A stretch of 64,000 nucleotides of DNA from a virus: the IMG/VR virus record IMGVR_UViG_3300020202_000068, positions 13,277 through 77,276 of that record, one strand, 5' to 3'. Of the stretch, positions 15,121 to 53,763 are shown in pieces (within the stretch, counting starts at the first letter, position 1; each line of letters starts with the position of its first letter). Both the position numbers and the translations under genes were made by a program. Under the pieces are notes generated by a model. It did no database searches. It had not been told where the DNA came from and worked only from the letters and a program-made list of their open reading frames with translations.

Positions 15121-15570
15121 CTACCACCTACGGAAGATGCCCCTCACAGGCCGACTATTATTGTAATAGCTACCTTGAGAGTAGTAGTTGCTGTAGGTTG
15201 AGCGGGCTGGTTGGGGGCAGGTCGCGCAGACCGGAGCGGTGGCCGGGGCCGCGAACACTGTCGGCCTGGCTTTCAGCCCCTCGTTTTCCTTCCGCAGCTC
15301 CGCGATCTCCATATCGAGGAGCACCAGCTTGGTTTGCAGCTCCAGCTCCGTGGCTGTGAACTGCTCAGGTGGAAGATGCTGGGGCGTACCGTCGTCATCG
15401 GCAGAGGCCCCAGCGCCGTCGTCGGAGGAGGAGGCCGACTCGGCAGATGATTCGTTGCCAAAGATCACCTTCTTGATGATCGCGGCGGGGATGCTGGGTT
15501 TCGGAGGCTCAGGCTTCTTAAACAAGAAGAGCACCACAACCACGATTCCCAGCGCTAAAAGACGGTTCAT
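15121..15570 (-). CDS. secreted/membrane protein with coiled coil
   Basis: Signal anchor MNRLLALGIVVVVLFLF; coupled ATGA. Confidence 0.55.
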   Translation of the reverse strand: MNRLLALGIVVVVLFLFKKPEPPKPSIPAAIIKKVIFGNESSAESASSSDDGAGASADDDGTPQHLPPEQFTATELELQTKLVLLDMEIAELRKENEGLKARPTVFAAPATAPVCATCPQPARSTYSNYYSQGSYYNNSRPVRGIFRRW

Positions 15571-16031
15571 GCGACGACCCTCCGAGACAGCAGGCGAACG
15601 AGTGCATTCAGCCACCAATCGTTCCAGCCGCTAAGAATACAGTAATTGCGATCGAAGACCCCATCGTGATGGCCAGCGTGGTGCTGGGGGCTGATGATCA
15701 GGCGCGTGGCCTGTAAGAACGCCACAAACCTCCCACCGCCCTCATGCGCCCAGTAATGCGGGAGCTGGGCGAAGCAGCCGATCACACCCGCGATCGTCAG
15801 AAACTCTGAGTGAACCCAGGCCCCGTAAACCAAGGCCGGAATAGCTGCCAGCATAGGCTGCCAGTCAAAGCCGTCCATGGAATTGGTCTTGTGATGGTTC
15901 TCGAACAGGTCGATCTGCTGCTGGACGTTCCAGCCCTTGTCGGTGAGCAGGTGATAAACGCCCGTTAAGGCATCCACCAGAATGTAGGCCAGCACGGCTT
16001 TCACGAAGAGCATGAGGATCGCGAGCATCAT
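15567..16031 (-). CDS. CarF/TMEM189 (Kua/FAD4-like) lipid desaturase family protein
   Basis: GVYHLLTD, FENHH, HYWAH, QHHAGHH, NYCILSGWN: eight-His membrane desaturase pattern. Confidence 0.85.
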   Translation of the reverse strand: MMLAILMLFVKAVLAYILVDALTGVYHLLTDKGWNVQQQIDLFENHHKTNSMDGFDWQPMLAAIPALVYGAWVHSEFLTIAGVIGCFAQLPHYWAHEGGGRFVAFLQATRLIISPQHHAGHHDGVFDRNYCILSGWNDWWLNALVRLLSRRVVA

Positions 16032-16927
16032 GGACCCCCTACTGGCTTCAGCCAATCGTCCGGGGTGGTCATCGTGGCAATCGCAAACGACCCGCTCCAG
16101 GCACTCCTCATCGTCCCCTTGGAGTCATAACGGATCACATCGTAGCTGTCCGGGTAGGGGGCGGAGCTGATCTCGTTGCCGCTAAACTGGAGCCCCGCCC
16201 AGGGCACGGCGTGGCCCGAGCGACCGACGCTCACCAAGTAACCGTGCAGGAGCAGGCACACAGCCTGTTCGTACGAGGAGGGGAAGATCACCTCCAGGGG
16301 TTTGAACCACTTAGCCGTCTCTTCCCAGCCCGCCGGGAAGCTGGAGACACTGACCCAAGGGCCTTTGGACTGATTCTTTCCGCCCTGGCCAGTCGTGCCT
16401 TGCAGGCTGTGTTTGAAACTGTATTCGAGGGGCTGAATCTTCTCCGGCAGGAAGCCTCGCCGACAAGCAATCTCCAGCACCTGCCGGATGCCTGCTCCGC
16501 CCCATTGCCGGGGGTTAGCCTCGGCGTACACCGAAAGCGGGCTGAGCCAGACCGAGCCCTTCACCGACTCGTCGTAGCGGAAGTCCTTCTTCGGGCCGTC
16601 GGGGAAGATGATGCCCCGGGCCCGGTTGCGGGCCGCTTCGGCATTCGCCCGGAGGGAGTGGCAGGTGCATTCGTGGGTGGGTGACTGGTTCGTGAAGCGG
16701 TCCAGCCGATTCATCCCCCAGGTCTTGTATTTGTCGTTGTCGCGGGCCTTATCCGCCCAGTCCTTGGGCTCAATCCAGAGGGCCGTCGGGAACTCTCGCG
16801 AGGATGAGCCGCAGACATCCATCAAGACATCGCGGGTGTCCCCGGCCTGAATCTCGACCGGGTAACCGTCGTGCTGCGGAAGGACTACGTCAACGAGTTT
16901 GGGGTCAACTGGGTCGAAGCTGCTCAT
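16028..16927 (-). CDS. papain-like (C1-type) cysteine peptidase
   Basis: NQ....ECTCHS catalytic Cys, LSPLSVY, GHAV catalytic His, DSY. Confidence 0.7.
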   Translation of the reverse strand: MSSFDPVDPKLVDVVLPQHDGYPVEIQAGDTRDVLMDVCGSSSREFPTALWIEPKDWADKARDNDKYKTWGMNRLDRFTNQSPTHECTCHSLRANAEAARNRARGIIFPDGPKKDFRYDESVKGSVWLSPLSVYAEANPRQWGGAGIRQVLEIACRRGFLPEKIQPLEYSFKHSLQGTTGQGGKNQSKGPWVSVSSFPAGWEETAKWFKPLEVIFPSSYEQAVCLLLHGYLVSVGRSGHAVPWAGLQFSGNEISSAPYPDSYDVIRYDSKGTMRSAWSGSFAIATMTTPDDWLKPVGGP

Positions 16928-26915: not shown

Positions 26916-28628
26916 CTACTTCCGAGGACCTCGCTGCATGTCCTTGGTCTGCTTTCCCGTGATCTTTCCGGCGATATAGCGGCCAATTTTTCCAGCCCAC
27001 GCCTGGGGACTGAATGGGTTGGTCAGGTCCATCGGCGATGCCGGTCCGGGCCGCATAGGTTTCTCGGTAAGGCCCAGGCCCAGTTCCTGGTCGCCGGTCG
27101 CTTCGCGGAGGATTTTGTCCTGGTCTTCCTTGTTTGTGACGCCATTCGCGGCTAGGTCGGCCCGGGCTCCTTCGATGTCACCGCCAGTAGCTTTATCTCG
27201 CACCGAACCAGTGACCTGTTCCGGCAGGCTGGGGGCCGTTGCCAGCGGCGGGGGCTTGGGCGCGGCTGGGCCGTTCTCAGCCTCCGTGCGGGCACGCTGG
27301 GCGTCCACGATAGCCTTGTTTCGACCCTCAGCAATCTTCTCGTTGGAGGTGATCTGCCTCTCAGCTAAGCCGAGTCGCTTGTCAGCCATAAGCTGCTCAC
27401 CGTTCATCCGTGCTTCCATTCCCTTGCGGGCCTGGTAGGCACCAGGATTGGCCGCAGCGAACCGCTCTTCCACGGTCAGGTGGCCACGCTTGACGCGCAC
27501 CGCATCCCGTCGCCCCTTATCCTTTTCCTGGGCCTTGGCGGTCGCCAGCTCCCGCCGCTTACCGAGTTCCGCCTTGCGACCGGCGAGGTACTTCTGCCGG
27601 GCGGGAGCGCTGGCGGTATTGGCCTGCTTCGCAGCCTCCACCCGTTTGGCGGCACTGCTGCCCTGGTTCGGCGTCAGCGATCCACCAGGCGTCTCTGTGT
27701 ACTGACCAGCTGGAAACTGAGGCTTCTGGGCAAGGTCAAGTTCCGGTCGTGGTGTCGGTTGGTAGCCGGTTGGCCGCTTATTGATGCTGGCCAGCATAGC
27801 CTCGCGGCCATTACCCTGGATGCCGATGTTTCGGGCAATCCGCAGGTCGTCCTCGGTGATATTTGGAGTCCCCTGACCGAAGTTCCCGCCGACCGTCGTG
27901 CGCGGCATGTGGCCGTGAGCTTGATAAACCTGATTGGCTCCGTAGTTGCTTGGCAGCATTCCATTGCTGGCTGGGTTCGCCAGGGCATCTGCGTAATGCC
28001 CAGCACCGCTCACCGGCCCGCTGGGGAATCTCTGTTCGATATCCGGCATCGACCCTTGAAGGTTATGGTTGCCGCTGGAGATGGCTCTCAGGGCTTGTAG
28101 CGATGGATGATTATCGACCGGGCTCGGCGGCTGCATCGCCCGGGCTGCCGGGCTACCTGCGATACGGTCGGACTCTCCGCCAGGCGTGAAGATGCCGTAC
28201 GGGGCATTGGGCCCGAGGTTCGGATTCCGACCAGTCCTCATATACGCATCCCAGGCCTGAGCGTGGGGCAGCGGTTGTGCTGGAGCCGGAACTTGCGGAG
28301 CGACCGCCTGTGGCTGGACGGGTGTGCTTGGTTGTGGCCTGAGCGCCTCGGCGGCACCAGCTTCCATGCCTTGAAAAGGAGACGGCCCTGGCTGTGGAGG
28401 AGGCGGCGTGAGTTGGATGGGGTTCGGACGAGCCGCTACCGGGTGCTGCTGGCCCGCTACTGGCTGAGGCGTCAACCCAACGCTGGGAGGCCCAGGTTGA
28501 GCGTGGAGATACCCCTCCCGCGTCCCCGACGGGGCCATCTGCGGCCCCGGAGGCCGCCAGGGAGCCGATAATCCAGTCGGGGATTTGTATCCGGCAGTCC
28601 GCTTGTTCGCCGTGGTGGGATGGGGCAT
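26916..28628 (-). CDS. Pro/Gln-rich low-complexity internal virion protein
   Basis: 570 aa disordered plus coiled coil, at the end of the tail operon. Confidence 0.55.
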   Translation of the reverse strand: MPHPTTANKRTAGYKSPTGLSAPWRPPGPQMAPSGTREGYLHAQPGPPSVGLTPQPVAGQQHPVAARPNPIQLTPPPPQPGPSPFQGMEAGAAEALRPQPSTPVQPQAVAPQVPAPAQPLPHAQAWDAYMRTGRNPNLGPNAPYGIFTPGGESDRIAGSPAARAMQPPSPVDNHPSLQALRAISSGNHNLQGSMPDIEQRFPSGPVSGAGHYADALANPASNGMLPSNYGANQVYQAHGHMPRTTVGGNFGQGTPNITEDDLRIARNIGIQGNGREAMLASINKRPTGYQPTPRPELDLAQKPQFPAGQYTETPGGSLTPNQGSSAAKRVEAAKQANTASAPARQKYLAGRKAELGKRRELATAKAQEKDKGRRDAVRVKRGHLTVEERFAAANPGAYQARKGMEARMNGEQLMADKRLGLAERQITSNEKIAEGRNKAIVDAQRARTEAENGPAAPKPPPLATAPSLPEQVTGSVRDKATGGDIEGARADLAANGVTNKEDQDKILREATGDQELGLGLTEKPMRPGPASPMDLTNPFSPQAWAGKIGRYIAGKITGKQTKDMQRGPRK

Positions 28629-28841
28629 TGTCGTTCCTTCTATTGGCTAGTTGGCGACCATCCTGGCCGCATAACGATCAGTTATTTACCGGACAATCGT
28701 TCACTAGAAATCCTACCACAAGGCGATTCCAATGGACCTGTCGGGTGGATCGTCCGTAAAAATCCACGCCAGGACCAGGAAATGCTGGTGATCGGCCGTC
28801 AATGTGTCGTCAAAATGTCAATACGGACAGGGAGGTGTCCC

Positions 28842-29042
28842 ATCTTGGTGCTATCACGAAAAAAAGGCGAACGTCTTATTATCGGCGAGGACATCGCGAT
28901 TGAGGTCGTCGAGGTCAGGGGAGACCGCGTCAGGCTCGGCCTGGAGGCACCGGACTATGTATCCATCGTCCGGGAGGAGCTATTAGACGTGCTGCGGGAG
29001 CAGGCGCAGCGCGAGACTAGGCTGGCGAGGGCAGCCGGCTAG
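28842..29042 (+). CDS. csrA: carbon storage regulator CsrA/RsmA (RNA-binding translational regulator)
   Basis: (I)LVLSRKKGERLIIGEDIAIEVVEVRGDRVRLGLEAPDYVSIVREEL. The Met1 position is ATC; alternative TTG at 28845. GGAGG SD at 28831-28835. Confidence 0.95.
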   Translation: MLVLSRKKGERLIIGEDIAIEVVEVRGDRVRLGLEAPDYVSIVREELLDVLREQAQRETRLARAAG

Positions 29043-29954: not shown

Positions 29955-30589
29955 CAACATTGAACCCACATAAGCGCCGGGATACCATTGCCGATCGTCA
30001 CTCCGCAATACTTTCCGTTGACGCTCGTAAGCGCTGTGCCACGGTTAACGACGCCCGTAATGTTCATCGAGGAGTCTGTTTGGTAGGTCGTGCCGACGTG
30101 CACACTGACAGTGCAGGTATTGCCCAAACTGACGTTTGTATCGTCAATCTTCCCAATGACCGTGTGAATTCCTAACCACTGAGCAACGACGACGTTTTGC
30201 CCGGCAGAGGTTGTAGCGCCGCCGATAATTCCATAGCCGTAGTAATTTAGTTCCAGGGTGTGCTGCCCGTGCTTGGGACCATAGACCGCGCCGGCGGATG
30301 GGGCGCTGCCGTTGTAGCGCACAAAGCCTGGCTTCAGGAGATCGGCAGCCCAACCTTCACTGGAACTGCTGGCTCCGATCGCCCAGGGGCCAGTGACGTA
30401 ATAGGCCCCAAAGTTGAACTGAGTGCTGGTGGAGTTGGGCTTGATGACAGACAACACGGGCTCGCCGTCTGAGGTCGTGACAGTGCCGTTCGCCAGGACC
30501 ACGGAATGCGGCGGAATCACTGCTCCGGTCGCGTTCTTGACTCGGAACCAGTTGCGACGAAAGGATGGGGCGATTTCGTTGGAGATCAC
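29954..30589 (-). CDS. tail/baseplate spike-like protein
   Basis: VKNATGAVIPPHSVV beta-rich; coupled. Confidence 0.55.
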   Translation of the reverse strand: MISNEIAPSFRRNWFRVKNATGAVIPPHSVVLANGTVTTSDGEPVLSVIKPNSTSTQFNFGAYYVTGPWAIGASSSSEGWAADLLKPGFVRYNGSAPSAGAVYGPKHGQHTLELNYYGYGIIGGATTSAGQNVVVAQWLGIHTVIGKIDDTNVSLGNTCTVSVHVGTTYQTDSSMNITGVVNRGTALTSVNGKYCGVTIGNGIPALMWVQC

Positions 30590-32133
30590 GGCAGCTCCTC
30601 CAGCTTAAGGGCGAACCGCTTCTCCTGGGCGGAGCGATCGAGCACGTCGTACTCACCACCTTCATAGACCCTGGTCCGGGGAGGCTTATTGATCACCCAC
30701 TCCCAGGTCACTTGGGCGATATTGCCGTTCAGTGTCCCGAATACCAGGCCTGGATAAGTGATCTCGCTGGAGTACGGACTTTGGTACTTGTCGATGAAGA
30801 TTTGGACGTAGGCGTCGGCTTCAGCGATGGTCTGCTCCTCTGTGCTTAGCCCGCTCTGGAGGTCATAGACCGAGAACAGCTCGGGACGCCGGAGGAGCAG
30901 GTCACCGCCATCCCCGCCAACTGTCCCGAAGCGGTAGATACCGCCCACAAACCCCTCGACGGTCTTGAGCTTATAAGCCGTAATCAGATAGAGCGTTGGC
31001 TCGGCAAAGGTCCCCGTGCTGGAGAGCTTGAAGAGTGGCGTATTAAACTCCACGATCTGCCGTTCCCTATGGAGGACGAACGGCACGAAAGATCGCGAGT
31101 TGGTGTGATTAGTGGCGATTTCCAGATAGCCCCAGCACTCCCCGACCTCGACGTAGGGCTGGAGGCTGTGCTGGACGTTGTGATAGTCGGTCTCGGAATA
31201 GAGGATGTAGTCCTGGAGAATGTATTGGTTGATGTTCGTGATCGGGAAGGGGAAGTTCCCGACCGGCAAAGTGCCGTTCTCCTGGCCGATAATCTTGTAC
31301 ATCCGGTACACATCCTCGAAGGCCCGAATGCGATGCTGGGCATTGCCCGACAGGCCAGCGAATATCCAGGGGTGCTCGTAATCCCAACCACCAGCGGGTT
31401 TGATGTTGGTTTGGGAGAGCGACTTCTGCTGGTTGCTGGGATAGTCCCGACAAGCAGCCTGAAGCCTTAGCCGGCTCTGCCAGAGGCTGTCTCCGCAGAT
31501 CACCACCACGCGGTTGGGGACGTTGGCCCGAGGAGCGAACTGCACCTTCGGCAGGACCTCGCCGACATCCGTGGGCGTCCCATTGCCCTGCCCCAGCCGC
31601 CAGATTTCCACCTGATTCGTGAGTGGGTTCAGCACGACCTCGCAGGCTACATAGTCACAGAGCCGCTGAAGGGCGATGTCCGCTCGCTCGTTCTGCCAAT
31701 TGCAGCGGGGAAAGACCCCGCCCGGCATTTGACTCACGTCGTAGCCTGACTCGCCGATGGCATCTAAGAGCAGGGTCGCTAATTCAGCTGGTGACTTCCT
31801 GGTGATCTCGTCGATCTCGCCCGCCGCTGTCCGTCGGTTCCAGTCGCCCCCGATCGTCTTCCCCGCCCACCGCCACCGCCGGTCTAAGAGATGCACGGCC
31901 AGGATCGGGTGGCCATTATGACGCTGCCGGAGATGGGCCGATTTGATGGCCATATCCGGGAATTGCAGGGAGATTTCGTTGTAGGTCAGGGTGAGCGTAC
32001 CGACTGAATCCACGACCTCTTGCGGGGTTAGGTAAAGACAGGCGACCGAGGGGGTCACGCCCCGCGCAAACGGGAAGCGGACGGCCCGGATACCGCTGAG
32101 TCCGCTATGCGTAATCCCTGATTGAATCGGCAT
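30586..32133 (-). CDS. baseplate hub/tail tip protein
   Basis: DRRWRW, LQRLCD motifs; position after tail genes. Confidence 0.55.
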   Translation of the reverse strand: MPIQSGITHSGLSGIRAVRFPFARGVTPSVACLYLTPQEVVDSVGTLTLTYNEISLQFPDMAIKSAHLRQRHNGHPILAVHLLDRRWRWAGKTIGGDWNRRTAAGEIDEITRKSPAELATLLLDAIGESGYDVSQMPGGVFPRCNWQNERADIALQRLCDYVACEVVLNPLTNQVEIWRLGQGNGTPTDVGEVLPKVQFAPRANVPNRVVVICGDSLWQSRLRLQAACRDYPSNQQKSLSQTNIKPAGGWDYEHPWIFAGLSGNAQHRIRAFEDVYRMYKIIGQENGTLPVGNFPFPITNINQYILQDYILYSETDYHNVQHSLQPYVEVGECWGYLEIATNHTNSRSFVPFVLHRERQIVEFNTPLFKLSSTGTFAEPTLYLITAYKLKTVEGFVGGIYRFGTVGGDGGDLLLRRPELFSVYDLQSGLSTEEQTIAEADAYVQIFIDKYQSPYSSEITYPGLVFGTLNGNIAQVTWEWVINKPPRTRVYEGGEYDVLDRSAQEKRFALKLEELP

Positions 32134-32148
32134 TTAGGAGAACTTGCG

Positions 32149-32346
32149 ATGGATGAGATGCGAATGACTTCTGAGGCTCTGGATTACGTGGATAAGCTGC
32201 ACTGGAGGTTTAATAAGCTGCTGTGTGATGCCGCCTTCTCAGAGGCTCATGAACGTGGCCGGGAGGTTGTGCAGGTAATTGATGTCCAGCATGTGCTCTC
32301 CAGGGTCTGTGAGCGGATATTCGATGAGGAGATCGCCAAGCACTAG
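32149..32346 (+). CDS. histone-fold protein (alpha2-L2-alpha3)
   Basis: RMTSEA-26aa-GREVVQVID aligns without gaps to archaeal HMf RVSDDA-26aa-GRKTIKAED, including the R-D clamp; AGGAG SD. Confidence 0.65.
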   Translation: MDEMRMTSEALDYVDKLHWRFNKLLCDAAFSEAHERGREVVQVIDVQHVLSRVCERIFDEEIAKH

Positions 32347-33671
32347 CTGAAGGTGATGGTCTTGTTCGTCCGTGGATGAATGATGGTGACTTCATCAAGA
32401 GTGCAATCAATCAGCTGGATTACTACGTTCCCGGTCCTTCCCTGGGGGTCCCTGAAGGTTGATCCGGCAGACATGGTGATCGTGTTGGTGATCGCGAAGC
32501 TGGCCACGCCCTTGGTGCAGTCGATCTCGCCACCGTTGAGGTCGAGAGTGGTGATCGTCGCCGCCCCAGTGGGCCAGAACTTCGCTCCCTTGTTCACGGT
32601 CAGGCTGGTAATGGTCCCGGCCCCATGCTTCCAGATGCCACCGTTCGCCACCCCAGTCGCTAAAGCGGAATTGGTAGTCAGGCTCCCGCCGTTGATCGTG
32701 ACCGTGGCGGAATTGAACGTGACTCCTGAGCTACAATAAGTCTCGGCCTGGGAGGTGGGGCCGCTACCGTTGATCAGCGTCGTGCAGGTAAAGGTCTCAC
32801 CGCCATAAAAAGCCAGCCCCACATCCCCGTCGAGGTTCCGCACGACGTTGGAGTTGTTGTTGCCGATCAGGAGGATGCAGGGGACACCGTTTGTTTCCCG
32901 CGTACCCTTACCGAAGACGTTATAGACCGAGGCGACTGTGCCGCCGTCGAGCTTGATCCGCCCGCTGCCAGGTCCCGCCCCGACTTCCAGGTCGGCATTC
33001 GTGAAGCCGTCAGCCGTGAGGTATTGAGGGGTGCGGTATTCCGGGTAGGGGTTCGCCGAGTCATCGACGTTCGTCCGGGCCAATCCGATCTTGCCGTTGT
33101 AGCTCTTGTACTTCGTGAATTGGGTGACCGCGATCGCTCCCAGGTCCAGCTCCCACAGGCAGTCCACGCTGCCGGTGTCGAAGATGACCGTGTCGCCATT
33201 ACCAGGAACCGCGTTACCATCCCAGTTATCGGCCTGATTGGCGTGATTGCGGCTCGTGGCGGCTGTAGCGGCGTTGGTGTAGTTCACTGCACCGTCGCCA
33301 GCCGTCGTCTCCGCTTCCGTCATCGTGAACGGCGTGCCAGCTAGAACCCCTGTGCCGGCCGTCGTAATCGTGACCGTGCTGGAGCTGACCGTAGCTGAGA
33401 GGTTGCCGAACTGCGGAATGCCCTGTGCCCCAAGGTCAGCGATCGAGGGCACGCAGCTGGCGGTCGTGTCGGCAAGAGTGTCGCCGTTTAGGGCCTCTTT
33501 GATCGTGGTGGCAACGCCGGCTGTGGTAGTGTTGGCACCAATCGTGATCACGAAATCGACATTCGCGATCGTGTACGTTTCAGTGTCTCCGGCCCCCCAC
33601 GTACCAGACACGATCGCTGTCGCGACTTGCCGCACCGCCTTCGAGGCACCAATCCATTTTGCAGTGGCCGT
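32343..33671 (-). CDS. tail protein with beta-helix-like repeats
   Basis: Thr/Gly/Asn-rich. The frame continues upstream of GTG 33635 to ACG-GCC-ACT-GCA-AAA-TGG (ATAKWIGA..AVRQV); probable ACG start. Confidence 0.65.
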   Translation of the reverse strand, partial: TATAKWIGASKAVRQVATAIVSGTWGAGDTETYTIANVDFVITIGANTTTAGVATTIKEALNGDTLADTTASCVPSIADLGAQGIPQFGNLSATVSSSTVTITTAGTGVLAGTPFTMTEAETTAGDGAVNYTNAATAATSRNHANQADNWDGNAVPGNGDTVIFDTGSVDCLWELDLGAIAVTQFTKYKSYNGKIGLARTNVDDSANPYPEYRTPQYLTADGFTNADLEVGAGPGSGRIKLDGGTVASVYNVFGKGTRETNGVPCILLIGNNNSNVVRNLDGDVGLAFYGGETFTCTTLINGSGPTSQAETYCSSGVTFNSATVTINGGSLTTNSALATGVANGGIWKHGAGTITSLTVNKGAKFWPTGAATITTLDLNGGEIDCTKGVASFAITNTITMSAGSTFRDPQGRTGNVVIQLIDCTLDEVTIIHPRTNKTITFS

Positions 33672-39301: not shown

Positions 39302-39601
39302 TTACTCCTCTGAGAATGGGATTGGTGGCATGTACGACTGAACGACCTGTTCGCCTCTCGCGGCCCCCATAGCCACGGCCAATCCCCTGTCGATCTCCAT
39401 CTCGGGCTCATCAGCAAGCCGCAGATTGTTCAGGAAATTGGCGTACTGCGAGGCACGGCGATGATGGTCTGGCCCATAAAAGCAAGTCACCATCGCGTTA
39501 TCACGGAGGTACGGTGTATTGACCGGGTGGCACTCCACTCGCGTGCAGCCGCGATATGCCTGGTCAGGCATGACGTTGATTAGGTAATCGCAGTAGTTCA
39601 T
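39302..39601 (-). CDS. hypothetical protein
   Basis: ATGA-coupled to the portal gene. Confidence 0.55.
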   Translation of the reverse strand: MNYCDYLINVMPDQAYRGCTRVECHPVNTPYLRDNAMVTCFYGPDHHRRASQYANFLNNLRLADEPEMEIDRGLAVAMGAARGEQVVQSYMPPIPFSEE

Positions 39602-42600
39602 TTCTTACTCCCTGAGGGTTTCGGCTTGGCTGCGGCTACGGCTTTTGTAGCCTGCACTTTCGCCTGTGTCGTTTGTTTGGTGCTATCCACTTTGGCCTTC
39701 GTGGCCTGCTTGGATTGCTCGATCTTCTGCTGGCCCTGGGCCTTATCGAGCTGCATCTTCTGAGCGCCCTGGGCGAGCTGCTGGCCTCCCTGCGCCTTCT
39801 GGAGCTGAAGCTGCTGCCGTCCCTGAGCAATCTGAAGAGCCCCCTGCTCCTTCGTCACGGCCAGGTCCACCTGACCCTTCTCCTGCTGGAGCTGGAGGTC
39901 CTGCTGATGCTCCTGTTGTTTGAACTGCATGTCAATCTGCTTTTCCTGAATCTTCAGTTCCAGCTCGACACGCTTGGCCTCTAGCTCAGCTTGCAGCTTC
40001 TGCATTTCCATCTGGAGCCGCTGGACTTCAGCCTCCTGCTCCATCTGGAGTTCCTGCTGCTTGAACTGGGCTTCCATTTGAAGCTCGACCATCGGATTGG
40101 CCTGGGCCTCGCCCTGGAGCTTCATGGCCTCGGCCTGGAGCTTCTGAACCTCTGCCTGCTTCATCTGCTGATCCAGCTGGGCGTTCGGATCATTCGGGTC
40201 CTTCTGCGGGAACATGAGTCCGTCCAGCTCCATGTCGTGCAGTTCCGCGAACTTCCGCATGTAGCCGTTGGCCGGCTCGTAATCGCCGGAGAGTTCCCCG
40301 TACTTCTGCACCATTGGCAGGAAGCGGGTCCCGAACTCAGAGAAGTTGTCGATGTCTCGATCCTTGTTTGGCCGGCGGATACTGGCCGCTGCGACCTCGT
40401 ACCTCATCTGCCGCATGATCAGCTCGTGGTCGGCGTTCTCGATGTACTGGGCCCAGAGAGAGGCTCCCGTGCGGCCCATGAGCGGGGCCACGTCCTTGCT
40501 CTTCACGAACATCCAGGCGATCAAGGCCTCGACGCTGGCCACCCGGCTCTGCCACTCCACGACCTTCTTCTGCATGTGCTCGGGACGCACCCCGACCGCT
40601 TGCTTGCGGGCGTTGGTGGTCTCGGCCGTGCGGTCCTGGGTGCCGCCTTCGTTCTGGCCATACACGAACGGGGTCATACCCATCCGCTTATCGAACAAGC
40701 TGTTCAGTAGCTCCAATACCTCCCAGGGGTCCTTATTAATGTCCTTGCCCTCGACGAGCTGGATCATCTTCTTGACATCCTGATCACCGCCGATGGGAAT
40801 CCCGAAGACGCTCATATCGTCGCCGTCTTCGAGCTGCTTCTTCAGCTCGTCGTGGTACTGGCTCATCACGGCCCACATCTGCCGGCTGGATTGCCAGGTG
40901 CGGTTCACGAGCCAGGAGACAATGGCGTTGATCGCCTTTAGCTCACCCAGAGCGGGAGCCAATGGAGGGAGTCCGTATGGACTGTCTGTGTCCTGGTAGA
41001 AGATGAGTCGCTCAACAGGCCATCTATCATCGGTCCAGAGAGGGATAGGCCACTCGAAATGTGATCTAACCTCTTCAGAACTAGCTCCGCTCCTAATTTT
41101 GTCGGATGGGCAGTTGAGTGGGTACGGGCAATCAGGGCAGATCGCAAGGTAGGCGTAATCACCGACGGTTTCCTCCAGCTGATTCTTGAGCATGTCCGGC
41201 ATCCCGGTCATCCGGCTGCCGACACCGCATTTCGACCAGATTTCGTACCAGACCACCAGGTCGTTCGTCTTCCCGCTCTTCCGCTCTCCGGTGGCTTGGC
41301 CTTCCTGGCTCATGGCTTCGGCGTAATGCCAGCCTGACTCTAGGGAGGCCTTGCCTTTGAGAGCGCCTTTAGGGAGCTTGAACTTCCGCTCGACCTGCCA
41401 GTGGGGCTGGATGTGCTTGCGGGCCACCCACTTACACTGTTGGGAGGTCTTGAAGTCAGGGTCGTAGATCAGGTCTTCCGGGGGGCAATGGAAGCAGCCA
41501 GTGAGCTGGAGATCGGAGCCCGGCATCGTATAGGGACCCGGGATCAGGCAGCCCGCCCCCTTGAGCATGGCGTCTAGGACCGCCAGTTCGTTATGGCCCG
41601 AGAGCCCGTCCCCCGGCATTTCCCGGGGCGTGTAGTTCAGCCACTGCTGCATCATGTGCCCGACGATTTTGTCGCTGGCACTTTCCTGGGCAGCTTGCTG
41701 CTGAATGAACTGATAGAGCTGCTGATCGGGGAACAGCTCGGGTGGGATTTCCAGCAGCTTTTTGCTCGTAGCTGTGCGATGCGGTACGTCCCATAAGAGA
41801 TTGGGGCCGAAAACCGCCACATACTCGAAAGCCTTGTTGATATTGATCCGAAAGCGGGGAGCCTTCACTCCCCGCCAGAACTTCTTGGCGTACAGCGGGT
41901 CCCACATGGCAGCCGCTGACTTGCCGTAGAACATGACGCAATTGCCGCTAATTAGCGGCTTGCCGTTGCGGCGTGTGATCAGCGTACCGTTCGGGACGGT
42001 GGCGCAGTACACCATTCCGTCGTACTGCTCCGTGTGGTACTTCAGCTTAATCTCGTCGCCGGTGTGTCGCTTTAGAGAGGCTCGCTTGCCTTCGCTCCAG
42101 GAGGTCACGAGGTAGAGCTTGCCGCTCATCCCGGTCCTGGTTTCGAGGCCTGGGTCGGTGATCGCGTATGGTGCTGGCTGTCTCTCGCTGATCGAGGCGC
42201 TGCGGCCGATCTTGAGCCACAACTCCTGGATGTCATCGGCAAGCTGTTTGCTGGCTGTTCCTGATATGGCATGGCCGTGGCGGACGTGGCCGTCACCGGC
42301 CAGATACCCACGCAGGAACGCGCGGATCACGTTCTGGGGGGAGTCTTTAACCCACTGAGGAACCCGCTTGTCGTAGCAGCTTGTGCCGAACTGGCGAAGG
42401 TATTCGCACAGCTCCTTGCTGGTGAATGTGTACGACTTCATCAGCTTGCTATACGGCGGAGCTGGGAACCCGACCCGCTTTGCCAGCTGCTCGTAATACC
42501 TGCGTCCAGCCGTCTTTTTCTGCGCAATGCCAACTCGATATGGAACGCGAGCTTTCTTCTCGCTCTTTTTCGAGCACCAGCCTTCGGCAATGTAAAAGCC

Positions 42601-43107
42601 AAGCCATTCGGCGAAGTCAGCCGGGTCGGTGTCGCCAACGAAATCAGGCAATCTCGGCTTAGTGCCATGCCAATTGGCTGAGGTCAGCTTTAGTTGCTCG
42701 CTACGGCGAAGGGAGCTGGCTTCCTTCAGGGCGGCCCGCCCGGAGTGTGGCGGGAAAAAGACCATTCGGTGGCCTGGGGTCACCATGGCGTCAAGAGACT
42801 TACCGGCAAAGCGGATCATCTCACCGGCCCTGTGGTGACGGACCAGCCTGGTAGGAACCTGGAACTCGATTGTGTCGGTTTCCAGGTTCACGGTCCCAAG
42901 CGGCTCGTCGCCGGTTAGGTCACTGAAGAGCATCCAGCCGGTGCTGGTGAGCACCTCTGTTTGCTCGTCATGGCATTCATCCGCCACTTCCTTCCACCGC
43001 TTGCGGGCGGGGCAGGTCAGCGCAGACTCCAGCTTGGCTAACCAACCTGTAACAATAGGGCGCAGGAATTCATAATTCCTGTCCTCGAAGGCTGCCAGGT
43101 CTTGCAT
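39598..43107 (-). CDS. portal protein (P22/podo-like, Gln-rich coiled-coil barrel) containing an intein
   Basis: Position after terminase; DLIYDPD, RTAETT motifs; long Q/E/K C-terminal coil; 824 aa after splicing. Confidence 0.85.
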   Translation of the reverse strand: MQDLAAFEDRNYEFLRPIVTGWLAKLESALTCPARKRWKEVADECHDEQTEVLTSTGWMLFSDLTGDEPLGTVNLETDTIEFQVPTRLVRHHRAGEMIRFAGKSLDAMVTPGHRMVFFPPHSGRAALKEASSLRRSEQLKLTSANWHGTKPRLPDFVGDTDPADFAEWLGFYIAEGWCSKKSEKKARVPYRVGIAQKKTAGRRYYEQLAKRVGFPAPPYSKLMKSYTFTSKELCEYLRQFGTSCYDKRVPQWVKDSPQNVIRAFLRGYLAGDGHVRHGHAISGTASKQLADDIQELWLKIGRSASISERQPAPYAITDPGLETRTGMSGKLYLVTSWSEGKRASLKRHTGDEIKLKYHTEQYDGMVYCATVPNGTLITRRNGKPLISGNCVMFYGKSAAAMWDPLYAKKFWRGVKAPRFRININKAFEYVAVFGPNLLWDVPHRTATSKKLLEIPPELFPDQQLYQFIQQQAAQESASDKIVGHMMQQWLNYTPREMPGDGLSGHNELAVLDAMLKGAGCLIPGPYTMPGSDLQLTGCFHCPPEDLIYDPDFKTSQQCKWVARKHIQPHWQVERKFKLPKGALKGKASLESGWHYAEAMSQEGQATGERKSGKTNDLVVWYEIWSKCGVGSRMTGMPDMLKNQLEETVGDYAYLAICPDCPYPLNCPSDKIRSGASSEEVRSHFEWPIPLWTDDRWPVERLIFYQDTDSPYGLPPLAPALGELKAINAIVSWLVNRTWQSSRQMWAVMSQYHDELKKQLEDGDDMSVFGIPIGGDQDVKKMIQLVEGKDINKDPWEVLELLNSLFDKRMGMTPFVYGQNEGGTQDRTAETTNARKQAVGVRPEHMQKKVVEWQSRVASVEALIAWMFVKSKDVAPLMGRTGASLWAQYIENADHELIMRQMRYEVAAASIRRPNKDRDIDNFSEFGTRFLPMVQKYGELSGDYEPANGYMRKFAELHDMELDGLMFPQKDPNDPNAQLDQQMKQAEVQKLQAEAMKLQGEAQANPMVELQMEAQFKQQELQMEQEAEVQRLQMEMQKLQAELEAKRVELELKIQEKQIDMQFKQQEHQQDLQLQQEKGQVDLAVTKEQGALQIAQGRQQLQLQKAQGGQQLAQGAQKMQLDKAQGQQKIEQSKQATKAKVDSTKQTTQAKVQATKAVAAAKPKPSGSKK
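41941..42975 (-). mobile_element. intein with LAGLIDADG homing endonuclease (345 aa)
   Basis: Starts CHDEQTEVLT..GW; block B VTPGHRM; WLGFYIAEG and FLRGYLAGDG; ends VYCATVPNGTLITRRNGKPLISGN, with Cys at +1. Confidence 0.95.
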
Positions 43108-44042: not shown

Positions 44043-45839
44043 TTAAACGGCAGCCCCTGGTCCGAAGTGGACGTACTTGCCACCGTTTTCTAGGTTCATT
44101 TGGCTGATCAGGCCCATGGCCGTGTGATAGGCCATGCTGCCTTGTCCTTTGCGGTTCTCAGGGGTGATGTAGGCCGTACCGTCCCGGAAGCGGCCGGCGA
44201 TGTATTCGGCGATGTATTCGACGCACATCACGCAGTCGTTCACTCGTTCGGCCTCACCGTCGTCCGTGGGGACGCTTTCCCCTTCGGCATTCTTGACTTC
44301 CTTCTTACGGAAGCTGCGGACCTCGCTGATCGTCAACGGGCATCGCTGCGAGAAGAGGAGACGTGGCCAGCCCCGTTCCGTGGGCTCCATGAGGTCGCGG
44401 ACCATCCGGCGACGGAGGGCCTTGTCATTGCAGCCCCGCATAAAGCCGTGCTTCGTGACCCGGCTCTCCAAGCCCTTCTTGCGAAACTCTTCCTCATAAG
44501 CCGCGAAGACGGTAGAGTCTGAGCCGACCGAGGTCTGACGACCCACCATCTGATCCATCACAAAGGCCTCGAACTTCAGGTCCCCGACCCGCGAAGCCAC
44601 CACCCCCGCAAACATGGAGGGCGTATGTTTTCTGACGATGATCTCTTCTTCAATGATCAGCCGATTGCCCAGCTCTTTGAATGTCGGGGGCGGGACGACG
44701 CAGACCAGGGCGGCGGTGCGGGTATGGCTCGGGTCGATCACCAGGTAGCGGGTCCAGTTGGCCGGCAATCGGTTCGGGTTTTTAGCCAAGAGCGAGCAGA
44801 TCGCCTTCCAGGCGTTCTCTTCCTGCTCCTTTTCCAGGAACTCCTGCGGCTTCACGATATGCAGGGCCGAGCCGAAGTTGTACATCAACCGCCCGCTAAT
44901 GAACGCACTGATGTCACCCTGGTTACGATGGGCCTCATCGTCGTCGTTATCCATCCGCTCGATCATTTCCTGGAGACCGAGCTTGTCGGAGTAGGGATTA
45001 TCGACGCTGACCAGACGGAAGACTTTGATTGGTGGTTTGTTGGTTTCCTTTTCCCCGCCGGGCTCGTACCGTTTGGCCCGCTCGATGGTTTTGATCAGGG
45101 CTTCATTGGCGACCTGCGGCCACACCGACCACAGGAACCAGCCCCGAGTCGTGGCCAGACGATCCTGCCATTCCTTGAGGTAAGAGCCCTTATCCACGTC
45201 CTCGTCGATCCAGATGCCATCGACGGCGTCTCCCTTCTTCGGGCTGTCCCCGGTGCTGGGATAGGCGCAGATCGTGGCTCCGTTGGTGAGCCGCACGCTC
45301 TTGAAGACGTTGCCGGCCGCACTCTCCATGTGCCAACTCTTGGGCACGATCATGTGCTCGCCAAACAGCGGCGGGGAGAGCTGGCTCTCGTTGTACCGCT
45401 CCCGGTCGAAGTTGGGGTTATAGGCCCGCCACTTCCTGGTGGTCAGGTCCTGGATGATGCGGAAGTTCGCTCCCTCTCCGAGGCCCGGGGCGAAGAGTCG
45501 GTGATAGAGGGTTTGGCCGATATGGTTCACGTCGAACCCAATTACCCAATAAAGGCCCGGGTTCTTTTTGCTGGGAGCCCGAAACCGGAGTGGTATTTGA
45601 GTCCCGTCTTCGCGGGTGATCGGGATGCCGAGAATGCGGCTGGCGAACTCCATCACCACCGCGATGGTCTTGCCCGACCGCTTTCCTCCGATGGTCAGGA
45701 CCTCACTAGCCGACGACTCGTGAACCGGGAGTTGGAACTGGGTCGGTCGATAGACGTGGAGCGGGTGCTGCTCGCGCAGCTCTAGCTCTAGCAAGCCCTT
45801 CTTGATCGTCTGGAGTTCGTATTTATTCGATCCCGGCAT
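44043..45839 (-). CDS. terL: terminase large subunit
   Basis: GGKRSGKT Walker A, GIWIDED Walker B, DNPY, VIDPS RNase-H nuclease, C-terminal ND motif. Confidence 0.92.
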   Translation of the reverse strand: MPGSNKYELQTIKKGLLELELREQHPLHVYRPTQFQLPVHESSASEVLTIGGKRSGKTIAVVMEFASRILGIPITREDGTQIPLRFRAPSKKNPGLYWVIGFDVNHIGQTLYHRLFAPGLGEGANFRIIQDLTTRKWRAYNPNFDRERYNESQLSPPLFGEHMIVPKSWHMESAAGNVFKSVRLTNGATICAYPSTGDSPKKGDAVDGIWIDEDVDKGSYLKEWQDRLATTRGWFLWSVWPQVANEALIKTIERAKRYEPGGEKETNKPPIKVFRLVSVDNPYSDKLGLQEMIERMDNDDDEAHRNQGDISAFISGRLMYNFGSALHIVKPQEFLEKEQEENAWKAICSLLAKNPNRLPANWTRYLVIDPSHTRTAALVCVVPPPTFKELGNRLIIEEEIIVRKHTPSMFAGVVASRVGDLKFEAFVMDQMVGRQTSVGSDSTVFAAYEEEFRKKGLESRVTKHGFMRGCNDKALRRRMVRDLMEPTERGWPRLLFSQRCPLTISEVRSFRKKEVKNAEGESVPTDDGEAERVNDCVMCVEYIAEYIAGRFRDGTAYITPENRKGQGSMAYHTAMGLISQMNLENGGKYVHFGPGAAV

Positions 45840-46393
45840 TAGCCATCTCGTCCGATAATTGAGTGCATAAGCATCATGTGCAGGTCACCATGGCAAACGA
45901 GGCCATGATTTCGATTCCAGCACCGGGGGTACAGGAACGTCGGCCCTCCTGCTGCTTTGTACTTGTCCACGTTCTCGTCACGATCATCGACCAGCAGCCG
46001 AACGGGAGACGCCATAAACTCCTTGGCTGATCCGATCATTAGTCGCTTTGAGAACTCTGGCAGGTTTTTCCTGACCCAATCTCGCTTCCCTTCGACGCAG
46101 CCAGCCGTGGCACAGGGGGCTGTCAGCAGGCAGACGTTGTCAGTGCCAACCGCAGAGTCCAGGACTCCGAGAATGTCCTGGGCATCTGGCATCCAGTCCA
46201 TCGTGCTCCAGAAGTCGTACCCGCATGGGCTCCAGAAATCACTGGCCGACATGCCCCAGATTTTGTCCATCTCGAATAAACCGCGATTCTCTCCATGGAG
46301 AAATGGGTTCGGGCGGTTGTGTAGTTGACAGATGTGTTTCACGAAGTCCGTGAGCACGCCATCCATATCGAGTAATACTTGCTTAATCACCAA
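45839..46393 (-). CDS. HAD-family 5'(3')-deoxyribonucleotidase (NT5C)
   Basis: LLDMDGVLTDF, LLTAP, GK..W, LVDDR..N, WN. Confidence 0.88.
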   Translation of the reverse strand: MVIKQVLLDMDGVLTDFVKHICQLHNRPNPFLHGENRGLFEMDKIWGMSASDFWSPCGYDFWSTMDWMPDAQDILGVLDSAVGTDNVCLLTAPCATAGCVEGKRDWVRKNLPEFSKRLMIGSAKEFMASPVRLLVDDRDENVDKYKAAGGPTFLYPRCWNRNHGLVCHGDLHMMLMHSIIGRDG

Positions 46394-52951: not shown

Positions 52952-53763
52952 TGCCGGTTTCGTCATCCATTAAGAGGCACGGCGGCAAGGCTTATCTCGC
53001 CAAGCAGATTCGCCAGCTCTTTCCGCCGCATACCCGCTACTGCGAGCCGTACTTCGCTACCGGGGCGGTGCTGTTCTCCGGGGACGGGGAGGGCGTGGCG
53101 GAGTTCGTTAACGACATCGACAACGAGCTAACCAATTTCTGGTGTCGACTCCGCGACGGAGACGACTTCCTGCGACTGCTCAGGGAGTTGCAATGCACGC
53201 CCTTGTCTCAAGTGGAATTCGAGGTGGCCTCAGCGTGCCGCGATGAGCCCGATGATGTGATGCGGGCCTGGGCGTTTTTCGTCCGCAACCGGCAATCACG
53301 CCAGGGCCTGGAAGAGGACTATTGCACGCCGACTTCCCGACTCCGGCGTGGGATGAACGAGCAGGTCAGCGCCTGGTTATCGGCTGTGGATGGGCTGCCG
53401 GAGTTCCATGCCAGGCTGCGGCGGGTGGAGATTCGCTGCCAGGACGCCCAGGAATTCATCGCCGAGCTTGACTCCCCAGAGGCGTTGTTTTATTGCGACC
53501 CACCATACATCCACGAGACACGCTCCTCAGTGGGAGAATACGGCCCGCATGAAATGGATCAGGTGGCTCACGCCAGCCTGCTCGGGCAACTGGCTGCCAT
53601 CCAAGGGAGATTCTGCTTAAGCGGCTACAGGCACCCTCTGTACGACGGCTGGGCTAAGCAAGAGGGCTGGAGGCGGGTGGATTTCCAGATCGACAATAAA
53701 GCCAGCAGCTCTAAGAGCAAGCAGATCAAGACGGAATGTGTGTGGTTGAATTATGAAGGTTAA
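52951..53763 (+). CDS. dam: DNA adenine methyltransferase (Dam/D12 class)
   Basis: GGKAYLA, YCEPYFATGAV, ND, YCDPPY, SGY, TECVW.NY. Confidence 0.92.
   Translation: MPVSSSIKRHGGKAYLAKQIRQLFPPHTRYCEPYFATGAVLFSGDGEGVAEFVNDIDNELTNFWCRLRDGDDFLRLLRELQCTPLSQVEFEVASACRDEPDDVMRAWAFFVRNRQSRQGLEEDYCTPTSRLRRGMNEQVSAWLSAVDGLPEFHARLRRVEIRCQDAQEFIAELDSPEALFYCDPPYIHETRSSVGEYGPHEMDQVAHASLLGQLAAIQGRFCLSGYRHPLYDGWAKQEGWRRVDFQIDNKASSSKSKQIKTECVWLNYEG

What the first reader, a model, noticed from the sequence alone, without database searches (positions are those of the whole stretch)
32149..32346. Histone-fold protein encoded antisense inside the tail operon
SEEN: RMTSEA-LDYVDKLHWRFNKLLCDAAFSEAHER-GREVVQVIDV. 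By hand alignment it matches archaeal HMf (RVSDDA-26 aa-GRKTIKAEDI) without gaps, including the Arg..Asp(+7) clamp. With the SD-supported ATG at 32149, helix alpha1 is missing and the protein is not basic; the TTG at 32122 would add a short helix. INFERENCE: a truncated histone could act as a dominant-negative partner or decoy for a host histone-fold protein, or as a DNA-coating factor. Phage histones are little characterised.
Basis: partly seen in the sequence, partly recalled or inferred. Interest (0 to 1): 0.7.

Follow-up and report, generated by a model that had tools for sequence, protein, structure and literature searches.

The report
Orphan half-histone gene in phage
An uncultured tailed phage carries a probably real 65-residue gene, found in no relative, for an acidic protein that keeps only the back two-thirds of a histone fold; it more likely binds proteins than DNA, and nothing about its function has been tested.

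Summary

**Real gene?** Probably.
- Its codon use is typical of this phage's genes.
- It is the only open frame in a 209-bp, low-GC insertion between two minus-strand tail genes. Those two genes abut (0-22 bp) in seven distinct related phages.

**Histone likeness: better than chance, but not family-grade.**
- Pfam PF00808 is the only hit: E 6e-4, 20.6 bits against a cut-off of 21.4, gapless over alpha2-L2-alpha3.
- The best PDB sequence hit is the M. kandleri histone.
- All named ESM Atlas neighbours are histone-fold families.
- A homodimer model passes its controls, with handshake-like contacts.

**What does not fit a true histone.**
- Helix alpha1 is absent with either start codon.
- The protein is acidic (pI 5.2, net charge -5).
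- The L2 Lys and Thr that contact DNA are replaced by Glu and Val.
- DNA coating is therefore unlikely. A protein-binding dimer or decoy is the best guess.

**Limits.** It is a singleton: an exhaustive search of 1.84 billion proteins found no homologue, so there is no conservation evidence. Expression and host are unknown.

Phage histone-fold proteins are already catalogued, so this is at most a new variant. Earlier notes from this scan report acidic half-histones in giant viruses and acidic histone-fold proteins in other phages. I did not check those notes.

The parts
32134..32342 (.). 209-bp lineage-specific insertion between two tail genes that abut in related phages
   Evidence: The gap is 0-22 bp in L003/L010, L004/L005/L012, L006, L007, L009, L013 and L018. 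The insert has 51.7% GC against 58.8% for the genome, placing it in the lowest 3.7% of 209-bp windows. No flanking repeats, no RNA structure (z +0.97) and no Rfam match.
32135..32139 (+). Shine-Dalgarno AGGAG, 9 nt before the ATG
   Evidence: Read from the sequence. 26 of 38 long genes of this phage have an SD-like motif, and AGGAG occurs about 1.7 times per kb per strand.
32149..32346 (+). 65-aa ORF plus stop (P0001): an acidic, alpha1-less histone-fold-like protein
   Evidence: Codon score is 0.271 per codon, against a coding mean of 0.328 (sd 0.199); 2.6% of stop-free non-coding windows reach that score. PF00808 E 6-8e-4.
32122..32124 (+). Alternative TTG start (74 aa), unlikely
   Evidence: It has no SD, directly follows a TGA, and overlaps the start of the divergent 515-aa gene by 12 bp. 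AF2 gives no separate alpha1 with this start.
32161..32178 (+). L1/alpha2-start motif RMTSEA (residues 5-10); Arg5 aligns with the L1 'sprocket' arginine of histones
   Evidence: Aligned with RASSDA of 1f1e and lies inside the gapless Pfam match.
32167..32256 (+). Long central helix (about residues 7-36), the counterpart of histone alpha2
   Evidence: AF2 predicts a helix over residues 2-36. In the dimer model it crosses its partner around residue 21.
32257..32286 (+). L2 and start of alpha3: GREVVQVIDV, with Arg38 and Asp45 (+7) as in the RxTxxxxD clamp; Lys is replaced by Glu39 and Thr by Val40
   Evidence: Sequence read; alignment to GRKTVQGEDV of 1f1e. The motif's meaning is taken from PMC11390915.
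32284..32340 (+). Lengthened C-terminal helix (residues 46-64), about twice the length of a nucleosomal alpha3
   Evidence: AF2 predicts a helix over residues 46-64. All of its turns touch the partner chain in the dimer model.
32343..32346 (.). CTAG palindrome that supplies the stop codons of both convergent genes
   Evidence: The csrA insert ends in the same arrangement at 29039-29042.
30586..32133 (-). Conserved 515-aa tail-region gene; its start is 16 bp from the small ORF's ATG, divergent
   Evidence: 39 homologues with an invariant Met1. It has no SD-like motif.
32343..33635 (-). Conserved 430-aa tail-region gene, convergent with the small ORF
   Evidence: Homologues of 436-449 aa lie directly upstream of the 515-aa homologue in the related loci.

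Best explanation
The ORF is a real accessory gene of the 'moron' type. It sits on the opposite strand, in a slot between two conserved tail genes. It encodes a 7.7-kDa acidic protein that corresponds to the L1-end, alpha2, L2 and alpha3 of an archaeal or nucleosomal-type histone fold. It has no alpha1, and its alpha3 is about twice the usual length.

The protein is predicted to form a symmetric homodimer. In the model the two long helices cross antiparallel at their centres. L2 of one chain lies against the N-terminal (L1) residues of the other. The lengthened alpha3 lies along the partner's long helix. I infer that this longer alpha3 covers the surface that alpha1 normally covers.

The alpha1 DNA face is missing, the L2 Lys and Thr are replaced, and the net charge is -5 per chain. 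It therefore most likely does not wrap or coat DNA. It more likely uses the histone fold as a protein-protein module, for example to sequester or cap a basic nucleic-acid-binding protein of the host or phage.

What is shown: the ORF, its SD, its codon use, the insertion, the sequence likeness and the charge. What is predicted: the fold and the dimer. What is inferred: the protein-binding role and its timing, which would be at a time other than the late tail operon.
For: **Gene reality**
- AGGAG lies 9 nt before the ATG.
- The codon-usage score falls within the coding distribution; 0.5% of all non-coding-frame windows and 2.6% of stop-free ones reach it.
- It is the only open frame in the gap.
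- The operon is otherwise tightly packed.
- The insert differs in composition from the genome, and no RNA-element signal was found.
- The same slot holds a different extra gene in L011.
- A second opposite-strand insert, csrA, is confirmed 3 kb away with the same CTAG ending.

**Histone-fold likeness**
- PF00808 is the only Pfam match up to E 10: E 5.7e-4 to 8e-4, gapless over profile positions 16/17-65.
- The genome-wide six-frame scan gives E 9e-5 with no other candidate. Five related phage records have no hit.
- The top PDB sequence hit is a histone.
- ESM Atlas feature neighbours: the two nearest clusters are unnamed viral proteins, and every named cluster listed is a histone-fold family. 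When ten such families are excluded, the next named neighbours are still TAF13 and TAF11.
- The Atlas's own model (pLDDT 0.84) aligns to CENP-X at TM 0.79-0.81 and to archaeal histones at TM 0.61-0.71.

**Dimer**
- The ESMFold2 homodimer scores ipSAE 0.41, against 0.00 for the best of 3 controls.
- That mark was reached by 21 of 30 proteins solved as pairs of one chain and by 0 of 23 solved as single chains.
- The runs agree in at least 95% of contacts, and the partner's pLDDT is at least 79.
- Contacts include 21:21', residues 40-43 with 6-7', and residue 46 with 10/14/17'.
- Histone dimers are solved structures, so this pass may only reflect likeness to them.

**Not a DNA coat**
- pI 5.2 and net charge -5.
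- Glu39 and Val40 sit where RKT has Lys and Thr (motif roles from PMC11390915).
Against: - The Pfam score (20.0-20.6 bits) is below the gathering cut-off of 21.4.
- phmmer against 1.84 billion representatives, and the 5.8-billion word search, found nothing but the protein itself. The two extra hits are tandem-repeat artefacts. There is therefore no conservation, no covariation and no test for purifying selection.
- The dimer contact list would also fit an ordinary antiparallel four-helix bundle. No coordinates were returned to test this.
- Only 15 bp of the insert lie upstream of the ATG, and no promoter-like site was found.
- The ORF's stop is supplied by the neighbouring gene's CTAG. The insert could therefore be a captured gene fragment.
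Confidence: 0.5

Rival explanations
1. The insert is a captured fragment of a histone-fold gene, a remnant. A piece of a foreign histone gene that lacked its 5' part (alpha1) and its own stop landed between the tail genes. The frame stays open only until the first flanking stops. It may or may not be translated and has no selected function.
For: - The frame is bounded by stops that belong to the flanks: a TGA inside the 515-aa gene's start region, and the CTAG of the 430-aa gene.
- alpha1 is missing exactly at the insertion edge.
- The insert has low GC.
- It is a singleton, absent from all relatives.
- No promoter was found.
Against: - A full AGGAG at ideal spacing before an ATG has roughly a 1% chance at a given ATG, from the count.
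- Codon use matches this phage.
- The C-terminal extension is predicted to be helical and to pack in the dimer.
- A tight phage genome rarely keeps 209 useless bases inside an essential operon.
Confidence: 0.2
2. It is a real or spurious small helical hairpin unrelated to histones. On this reading the PF00808 hit and the language-model neighbours reflect a generic amphipathic helix-loop-helix rather than common descent or a handshake dimer.
For: - The Pfam score is sub-threshold.
- Atlas scores of 0.88-0.89 fall under the 0.9 'lead only' line, and a third of shuffled proteins also get ten same-clan hits.
- The AF2 monomer is a plain hairpin whose best matches are unrelated hairpins.
- One AAA_lid_2 structural neighbour has TM 0.68.
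- A 65-74 codon open frame is not rare in 59% GC DNA: about 8% per frame from base composition, by my own calculation.
Against: - Two histone signature motifs (R-hydrophobic-S/T-x-acidic-A, and G-R-x-[TV]-[IV]-x-x-x-D-[IV]) are present. The 33-residue Arg-to-Arg spacing is identical to that of 1f1e.
- The per-genome E-value is 9e-5, with zero background hits in about 240 kb of related phage DNA.
- No other Pfam family matches up to E 10, and there is no AAA_lid_2 match.
- With histone families excluded, the next Atlas neighbours are still histone-fold TAFs.
Confidence: 0.2
3. It is a true phage histone that coats, bends or bridges phage or host DNA. This is the first reader's second option, and would be like the catalogued phage histone-fold proteins.
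For: - Histone-fold likeness.
- Arg5 is retained at the L1 'sprocket' position, and Arg36 and Arg38 lie in or next to L2.
- Phage histone-fold proteins exist (PMC11390915, PMC13681535).
Against: - pI 5.2 and net charge -5.
- There is no alpha1, which carries the central DNA-binding face in archaeal and bacterial histones (PMC11390915).
- Lys and Thr of RKT are replaced by Glu and Val.
- The gene does not lie in a replication or packaging module.
Confidence: 0.04

Closest known systems
Archaeal nucleosomal histones and the HMk doublet of Methanopyrus kandleri (PDB 1f1e; Pfam PF00808 CBFD_NFYB_HMF)
   Same: - Gapless alignment over L1-end, alpha2, L2 and alpha3, with about 37% identity (my count) over the 46 residues aligned to the second fold of 1f1e.
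- L1 arginine present.
- Central helix of about 30 residues.
- Gly-Arg...Asp-Val clamp at the same spacing.
- Predicted antiparallel homodimer.
   Different: - No alpha1.
- alpha3 is about twice as long.
- Acidic rather than basic.
- Lys and Thr of the RKT DNA contact are replaced by Glu and Val.
- The score is just under the Pfam cut-off.
'Phage histones' of Schwab et al. 2024 (alpha3-histone superfamily, e.g. A0A2E7QIQ9; PMC11390915) and the related VTTHFP cluster of Liu et al. 2025 (PMC13681535)
   Same: A small histone-fold-type protein encoded by a tailed phage. The function is computationally inferred only.
   Different: The described proteins have alpha1, an alpha3 truncated to 3-4 residues, a C-terminal tetramerisation helix and conserved lysines, and they lack the RxTxxxD motif. 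This protein lacks alpha1, has a long alpha3, keeps the Arg...Asp pair and is acidic. I could not compare sequences directly, because none were available through the tools.
CENP-X / MHF2 and other non-histone histone-fold partners (TAFs, NF-Y, CENP-S/T/W)
   Same: These are the best structural neighbours of the Atlas model (TM 0.79-0.81 normalised to the query). From general knowledge, they use the fold mainly as a protein dimerisation module, and not all are basic.
   Different: They are eukaryotic and have alpha1. PF09415 does not match by sequence.
Acidic alpha1-less 'half-histone' H4-like proteins of giant viruses
   Same: The same idea: only alpha2-L2-alpha3 is kept, the protein is acidic, and it was judged to bind proteins rather than DNA.
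   Different: Those form a large conserved family in Nucleocytoviricota with extra tail modules. This one is a 65-aa singleton in a tailed phage. No sequence relation was tested.

Membership tests
Histone fold, Pfam PF00808 CBFD_NFYB_HMF (clan CL0012) | Profile score at or above the curated gathering cut-off (21.4 bits) | tested here: not met
   20.6 bits (74-aa form) and 20.0 bits (65-aa form). E is 5.7e-4 and 8e-4, and only 49-50 of the 65 profile positions are matched.
Histone fold, Pfam PF00808 CBFD_NFYB_HMF (clan CL0012) | Three helices alpha1-L1-alpha2-L2-alpha3 | tested here: not met
   Only two helices are predicted: 2-36 and 46-64. The TTG-extended form gives 2-45 and 55-73 with no separate alpha1. 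An in-frame TGA at 32119 excludes a longer N-terminus.
Histone fold, Pfam PF00808 CBFD_NFYB_HMF (clan CL0012) | Long central alpha2 (about 28-30 residues), then an L2 loop and alpha3 | tested here: met
   AF2 gives helix 2-36, loop 37-45 and helix 46-64. The alignment to the profile and to 1f1e is gapless.
Histone fold, Pfam PF00808 CBFD_NFYB_HMF (clan CL0012) | RxTxxxxD motif (the Arg-Asp clamp that shapes L2; the Thr contacts DNA) | tested here: inconclusive
   Arg38 and Asp45 are present at +7. The Thr position is Val40, and the Lys of RKT is Glu39. The motif definition comes from PMC11390915.
Histone fold, Pfam PF00808 CBFD_NFYB_HMF (clan CL0012) | Handshake dimer (antiparallel alpha2 crossing, L1 paired with L2') | tested here: inconclusive
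   The homodimer model scores ipSAE 0.41 against 0.00 for the best of 3 controls. That mark was reached by 21 of 30 proteins solved as pairs of one chain and by 0 of 23 solved as single chains. Runs agree in at least 95% of contacts, and partner pLDDT is at least 79. Contacts are 21:21' and residues 40-43 with 6-7'. This is a prediction only and may come from likeness to solved histone dimers. A hairpin four-helix bundle would give a similar contact list.
DNA-binding histones (archaeal nucleosomal, bacterial HBb/Bd0055-type) | Basic protein with DNA-contact residues on alpha1 and in L1/L2 | tested here: not met
   pI 5.2 and net charge -5. alpha1 is absent, and the L2 Lys and Thr are replaced.
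'Phage histones' / alpha3 histones (Schwab 2024) | alpha3 truncated to 3-4 residues plus a C-terminal tetramerisation helix; no RxTxxxD | tested here: not met
   alpha3 is predicted as 19 residues with no further domain, and the Arg...Asp pair is present. No family profile was available, so this is a comparison of features only.
   No match at E up to 1 in a six-frame scan of the genome. No lid family appears in Pfam up to E 10. One Atlas structural neighbour has TM 0.68, so a fold-level resemblance is not excluded.

The most novel reading that the evidence does not exclude
A tailed phage makes an alpha1-less, acidic 'half-histone' that forms mixed handshake dimers with a host histone-fold or other nucleoid protein and so poisons it. 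This would be a dominant-negative chromatin weapon, and the phage counterpart of the acidic half-histones noted in giant viruses.
Probability: 0.08. Interest if true: 0.7.

Novelty: new variant of a known kind. Interest (0 to 1): 0.35.

Why it matters
Histone-fold proteins of tailed phages were catalogued only recently, by computation, and none has a tested function. The described ones are basic, complete folds thought to bridge or bend DNA.

An acidic version that has lost alpha1 and the DNA contacts would show a different use of the fold. The phage would be using it as a protein-binding or decoy module. That could point to a host nucleoid protein as a target of phage attack.

The finding also illustrates an insertion slot between two conserved tail genes where unrelated accessory genes are lodged.

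The case is weak as it stands: one sequence, no relatives, no expression data and an unknown host.

Tried and rejected
**Homologue searches**
- The word-based search of 5.8 billion proteins found only the protein itself.
- Exhaustive phmmer of 1.84 billion representatives found the protein itself plus P0003 (a tandem-repeat translation) and P0004 (a GAF-repeat protein). Both are repeat-inflated artefacts.
- Nothing was found in IMG/VR with peptide patterns.
- tblastn against 50,697 GenBank phages gave only E of 6 or more.
- PHROGs gave only E 0.2.

**Structure**
- Foldseek of the AF2 monomer against the PDB gave nothing at E 0.001 or below.
- Folding the TTG-extended form added no alpha1.

**Non-coding readings of the gap**
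- RNA fold z-score +0.97.
- No Rfam match.
- No terminal or target-site repeats.
- No sigma-70-like promoter.
- No shared motif with the csrA upstream region.
- Minus-strand frames in the gap are closed or score as non-coding.

**Host and relatives**
- The 515-aa protein and the terminase have no GenBank phage relatives.
- There are no prophage copies in 185,579 genomes.
- The PF10520 desaturase profile found no cellular relative.
- The neighbouring 430-aa and 515-aa proteins have no PDB, Pfam or PHROG identity.

**A second histone-fold partner in the phage.** None was found with PF00808, PF00125 or PF09415.

Full report
**Setting.** The window is part of a 77,276-bp IMG/VR virus record judged complete by CheckV. 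A minus-strand late block runs from about 26.9 to 48.7 kb. It holds a large-terminase-like gene (a weak, below-cut-off Terminase_6N match), a 1169-aa protein with a LAGLIDADG_3 domain, a tail-tube protein (Phage_tube_2, E 8e-11) and tail-fibre-like genes. Genes in this block are tightly packed, with most gaps under 70 bp.

**The observation.**
- On the + strand an ATG at 32149 opens a 65-codon frame that ends at TAG 32344-32346.
- AGGAG lies 9 nt upstream of the ATG.
- The frame can extend only to a TTG at 32122, which directly follows a TGA. That TTG has no SD and overlaps the start of the divergent 515-aa gene.
- The ORF is not antisense to coding sequence. It fills a 209-bp gap between the start of the 515-aa gene (32133, minus strand) and the stop of the 430-aa gene (32343, minus strand). 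It shares only a CTAG palindrome that supplies both stop codons.

**Is it a gene?**
- A codon log-odds model trained on 38 long ORFs of this phage gives the frame 0.271 per codon. The coding mean is 0.328 (sd 0.199). Only 0.5% of all non-coding-frame windows reach that score, and 2.6% of stop-free ones.
- The other five frames in the gap are closed or score as non-coding.
- Two-thirds of the phage's long genes carry an SD-like motif, so the AGGAG is meaningful.
- The gap shows no RNA structure (z +0.97), no Rfam family and no flanking repeats.
- The protein was also called as a 65-aa gene product in the protein collection.
- I put the chance that it is a translated gene at about 0.75-0.8.
- Against this, only 15 bp of the insert lie upstream of the ATG, and no promoter-like site was found.

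**Comparative context.**
- The 515-aa neighbour has 39 homologues with an invariant Met1.
- In related phage contigs the 430-like and 515-like genes abut:
  - a 22-bp gap in L003/L010;
  - 3-5 bp in L004/L005/L012, L006, L009, L013 and L018;
  - an overlap in L007.
- None of five related records has a PF00808 match or any match to the small protein.
- L011 has a 420-bp gap in the same slot. It holds a different, same-strand 139-aa ORF with no Pfam family.
- The 209 bp are therefore a lineage-specific insertion in a slot that accepts accessory genes.
- The insert's GC (51.7%) is in the lowest 3.7% of windows of that size in the genome.
- A second opposite-strand insert 3 kb away is a clear csrA (PF02599, E 6.5e-19). 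It also ends in a CTAG shared with the convergent gene.

**Is it a histone fold?**
- Sequence evidence:
  - PF00808 is the only Pfam match up to E 10. It scores 20.0-20.6 bits and is gapless over profile positions 16/17-65, that is L1-end, alpha2, L2 and alpha3. This is 1 bit under the cut-off.
  - The best PDB sequence hit is the M. kandleri histone doublet 1f1e. E is 0.36, with about 37% identity (my count) over 46 gapless residues.
  - In that alignment the L1 Arg, the Gly-Arg of L2 and the Asp-Val of alpha3 are in register. The Arg-to-Arg spacing of 33 residues is the same in both.
  - The Arg and Asp are the pair that shapes L2 in the RxTxxxxD motif (PMC11390915).
- Language-model and structure evidence:
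  - The two nearest ESM Atlas clusters are unnamed viral proteins, and every named cluster listed is a histone-fold family (0.85-0.88).
  - After ten such families are excluded, the next named neighbours are still TAF13 and TAF11 (0.83 and 0.81).
  - The Atlas's own model (pLDDT 0.84) aligns best to CENP-X (TM 0.79-0.81) and to archaeal histones (0.61-0.71). A single AAA_lid_2 row has TM 0.68.
  - These scores are below the tool's 0.9 'lead only' line.
- AAA lid: PF17863 does not match by sequence.
- AF2 single-sequence models are plain two-helix hairpins (helix 2-36, loop 37-45, helix 46-64; pLDDT 74). They find only generic hairpins. This is uninformative, because a histone monomer has no meaning outside its dimer.
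- The homodimer test passed:
  - ipSAE is 0.41, against 0.00 for the best of 3 controls.
  - That mark was reached by 21 of 30 proteins solved as pairs of one chain and by 0 of 23 solved as single chains.
  - Runs agree in at least 95% of contacts, and the partner's pLDDT is at least 79.
  - Contacts are 21:21', residues 40-43 with 6-7', and residue 46 with 10/14/17'. A handshake gives this pattern.
  - A hairpin four-helix bundle could give much the same list. The pass may also reflect memory of solved histone dimers.
- Overall I give about 0.65-0.7 that the protein is derived from, or folds like, the alpha2-L2-alpha3 part of a histone fold.

**What it is not.**
- alpha1 is absent with either start.
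- The protein has pI 5.2 and net charge -5.
- The Lys-Thr of the RKT DNA contact is Glu-Val.
- It is not a member of the described 'phage histones'. Those have alpha1, a truncated alpha3, a C-terminal tetramerisation helix, no RxTxxxD motif and conserved lysines.
- A DNA-coating role is therefore unlikely.

**Most likely mechanism (inferred).**
- It is a small acidic homodimer in which the lengthened alpha3 lies along the partner's long helix, where alpha1 would normally pack.
- It would act as a protein-binding module.
The host is unknown. No prophage or cellular relatives were found.
- The phage has no second histone-fold gene.
- Because the gene faces the late operon, I infer that it is expressed at another time. 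A small serine recombinase is present but no tyrosine integrase, so lysogeny is uncertain.

**Rivals.**
- A captured, non-functional fragment of a histone gene (0.2).
- A helical hairpin unrelated to histones, or a chance ORF (0.2).
- A genuine DNA-binding phage histone (0.04).

**Novelty and score.**
- Phage histone-fold proteins are already catalogued (PMC11390915; PMC13681535, which lists 289 non-redundant Caudoviricetes proteins).
- Earlier notes of this scan report acidic histone-fold proteins in other phages and acidic alpha1-less half-histones in giant viruses. I did not check them.
- This is at most a new variant, and it rests on one sequence without relatives.
- Interest: 0.35.

Noticed in passing
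window 28620-29042 (+): This frame holds a clear CsrA domain (PF02599, E 6.5e-19, frame residues 76-123). It is a second opposite-strand insert in the late operon. Its TAG (29040-29042) shares a CTAG palindrome with the stop of the convergent 113-aa gene, the same arrangement as at 32343-32346.
   Followed up: partly
L011:3582-4001 (+): In a related phage contig the same slot between the 430-like and 515-like genes holds a different, same-strand 139-aa ORF. It has a hydrophobic C-terminal stretch and no Pfam family. The junction looks like a recurrent site for accessory-gene insertion.
   Followed up: partly
window 32134-32151 (minus strand, upstream of the 515-aa gene): The conserved 515-aa gene has no SD-like motif and lies 209 bp from the preceding gene. 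In relatives it abuts or overlaps that gene. The insertion seems to have broken a translational coupling, and how the 515-aa gene is now initiated is unexplained.
   Followed up: no
window 39598-43107 (-): A 1169-aa late protein carries a LAGLIDADG_3 domain (E 5e-14) near residues 260-309.
   Followed up: no
window 15567-16055 (-): A small membrane protein of the PF10520 lipid-desaturase (CarF/TMEM189) family. Its 11 homologues are all short metagenomic proteins of about 150 aa, and no relative was found in 185,579 cellular genomes with the pattern scan.
   Followed up: partly
window 45839-46393 (-): An NT5C-type 5'-deoxynucleotidase (PF06941, E 1.9e-8) sits next to the terminase-like gene.
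   Followed up: no
window 53753-54631 (+): A 292-aa serine recombinase (Resolvase domain, E 2e-19). No tyrosine integrase is present in the genome, so it is unclear whether the phage is temperate.
   Followed up: no
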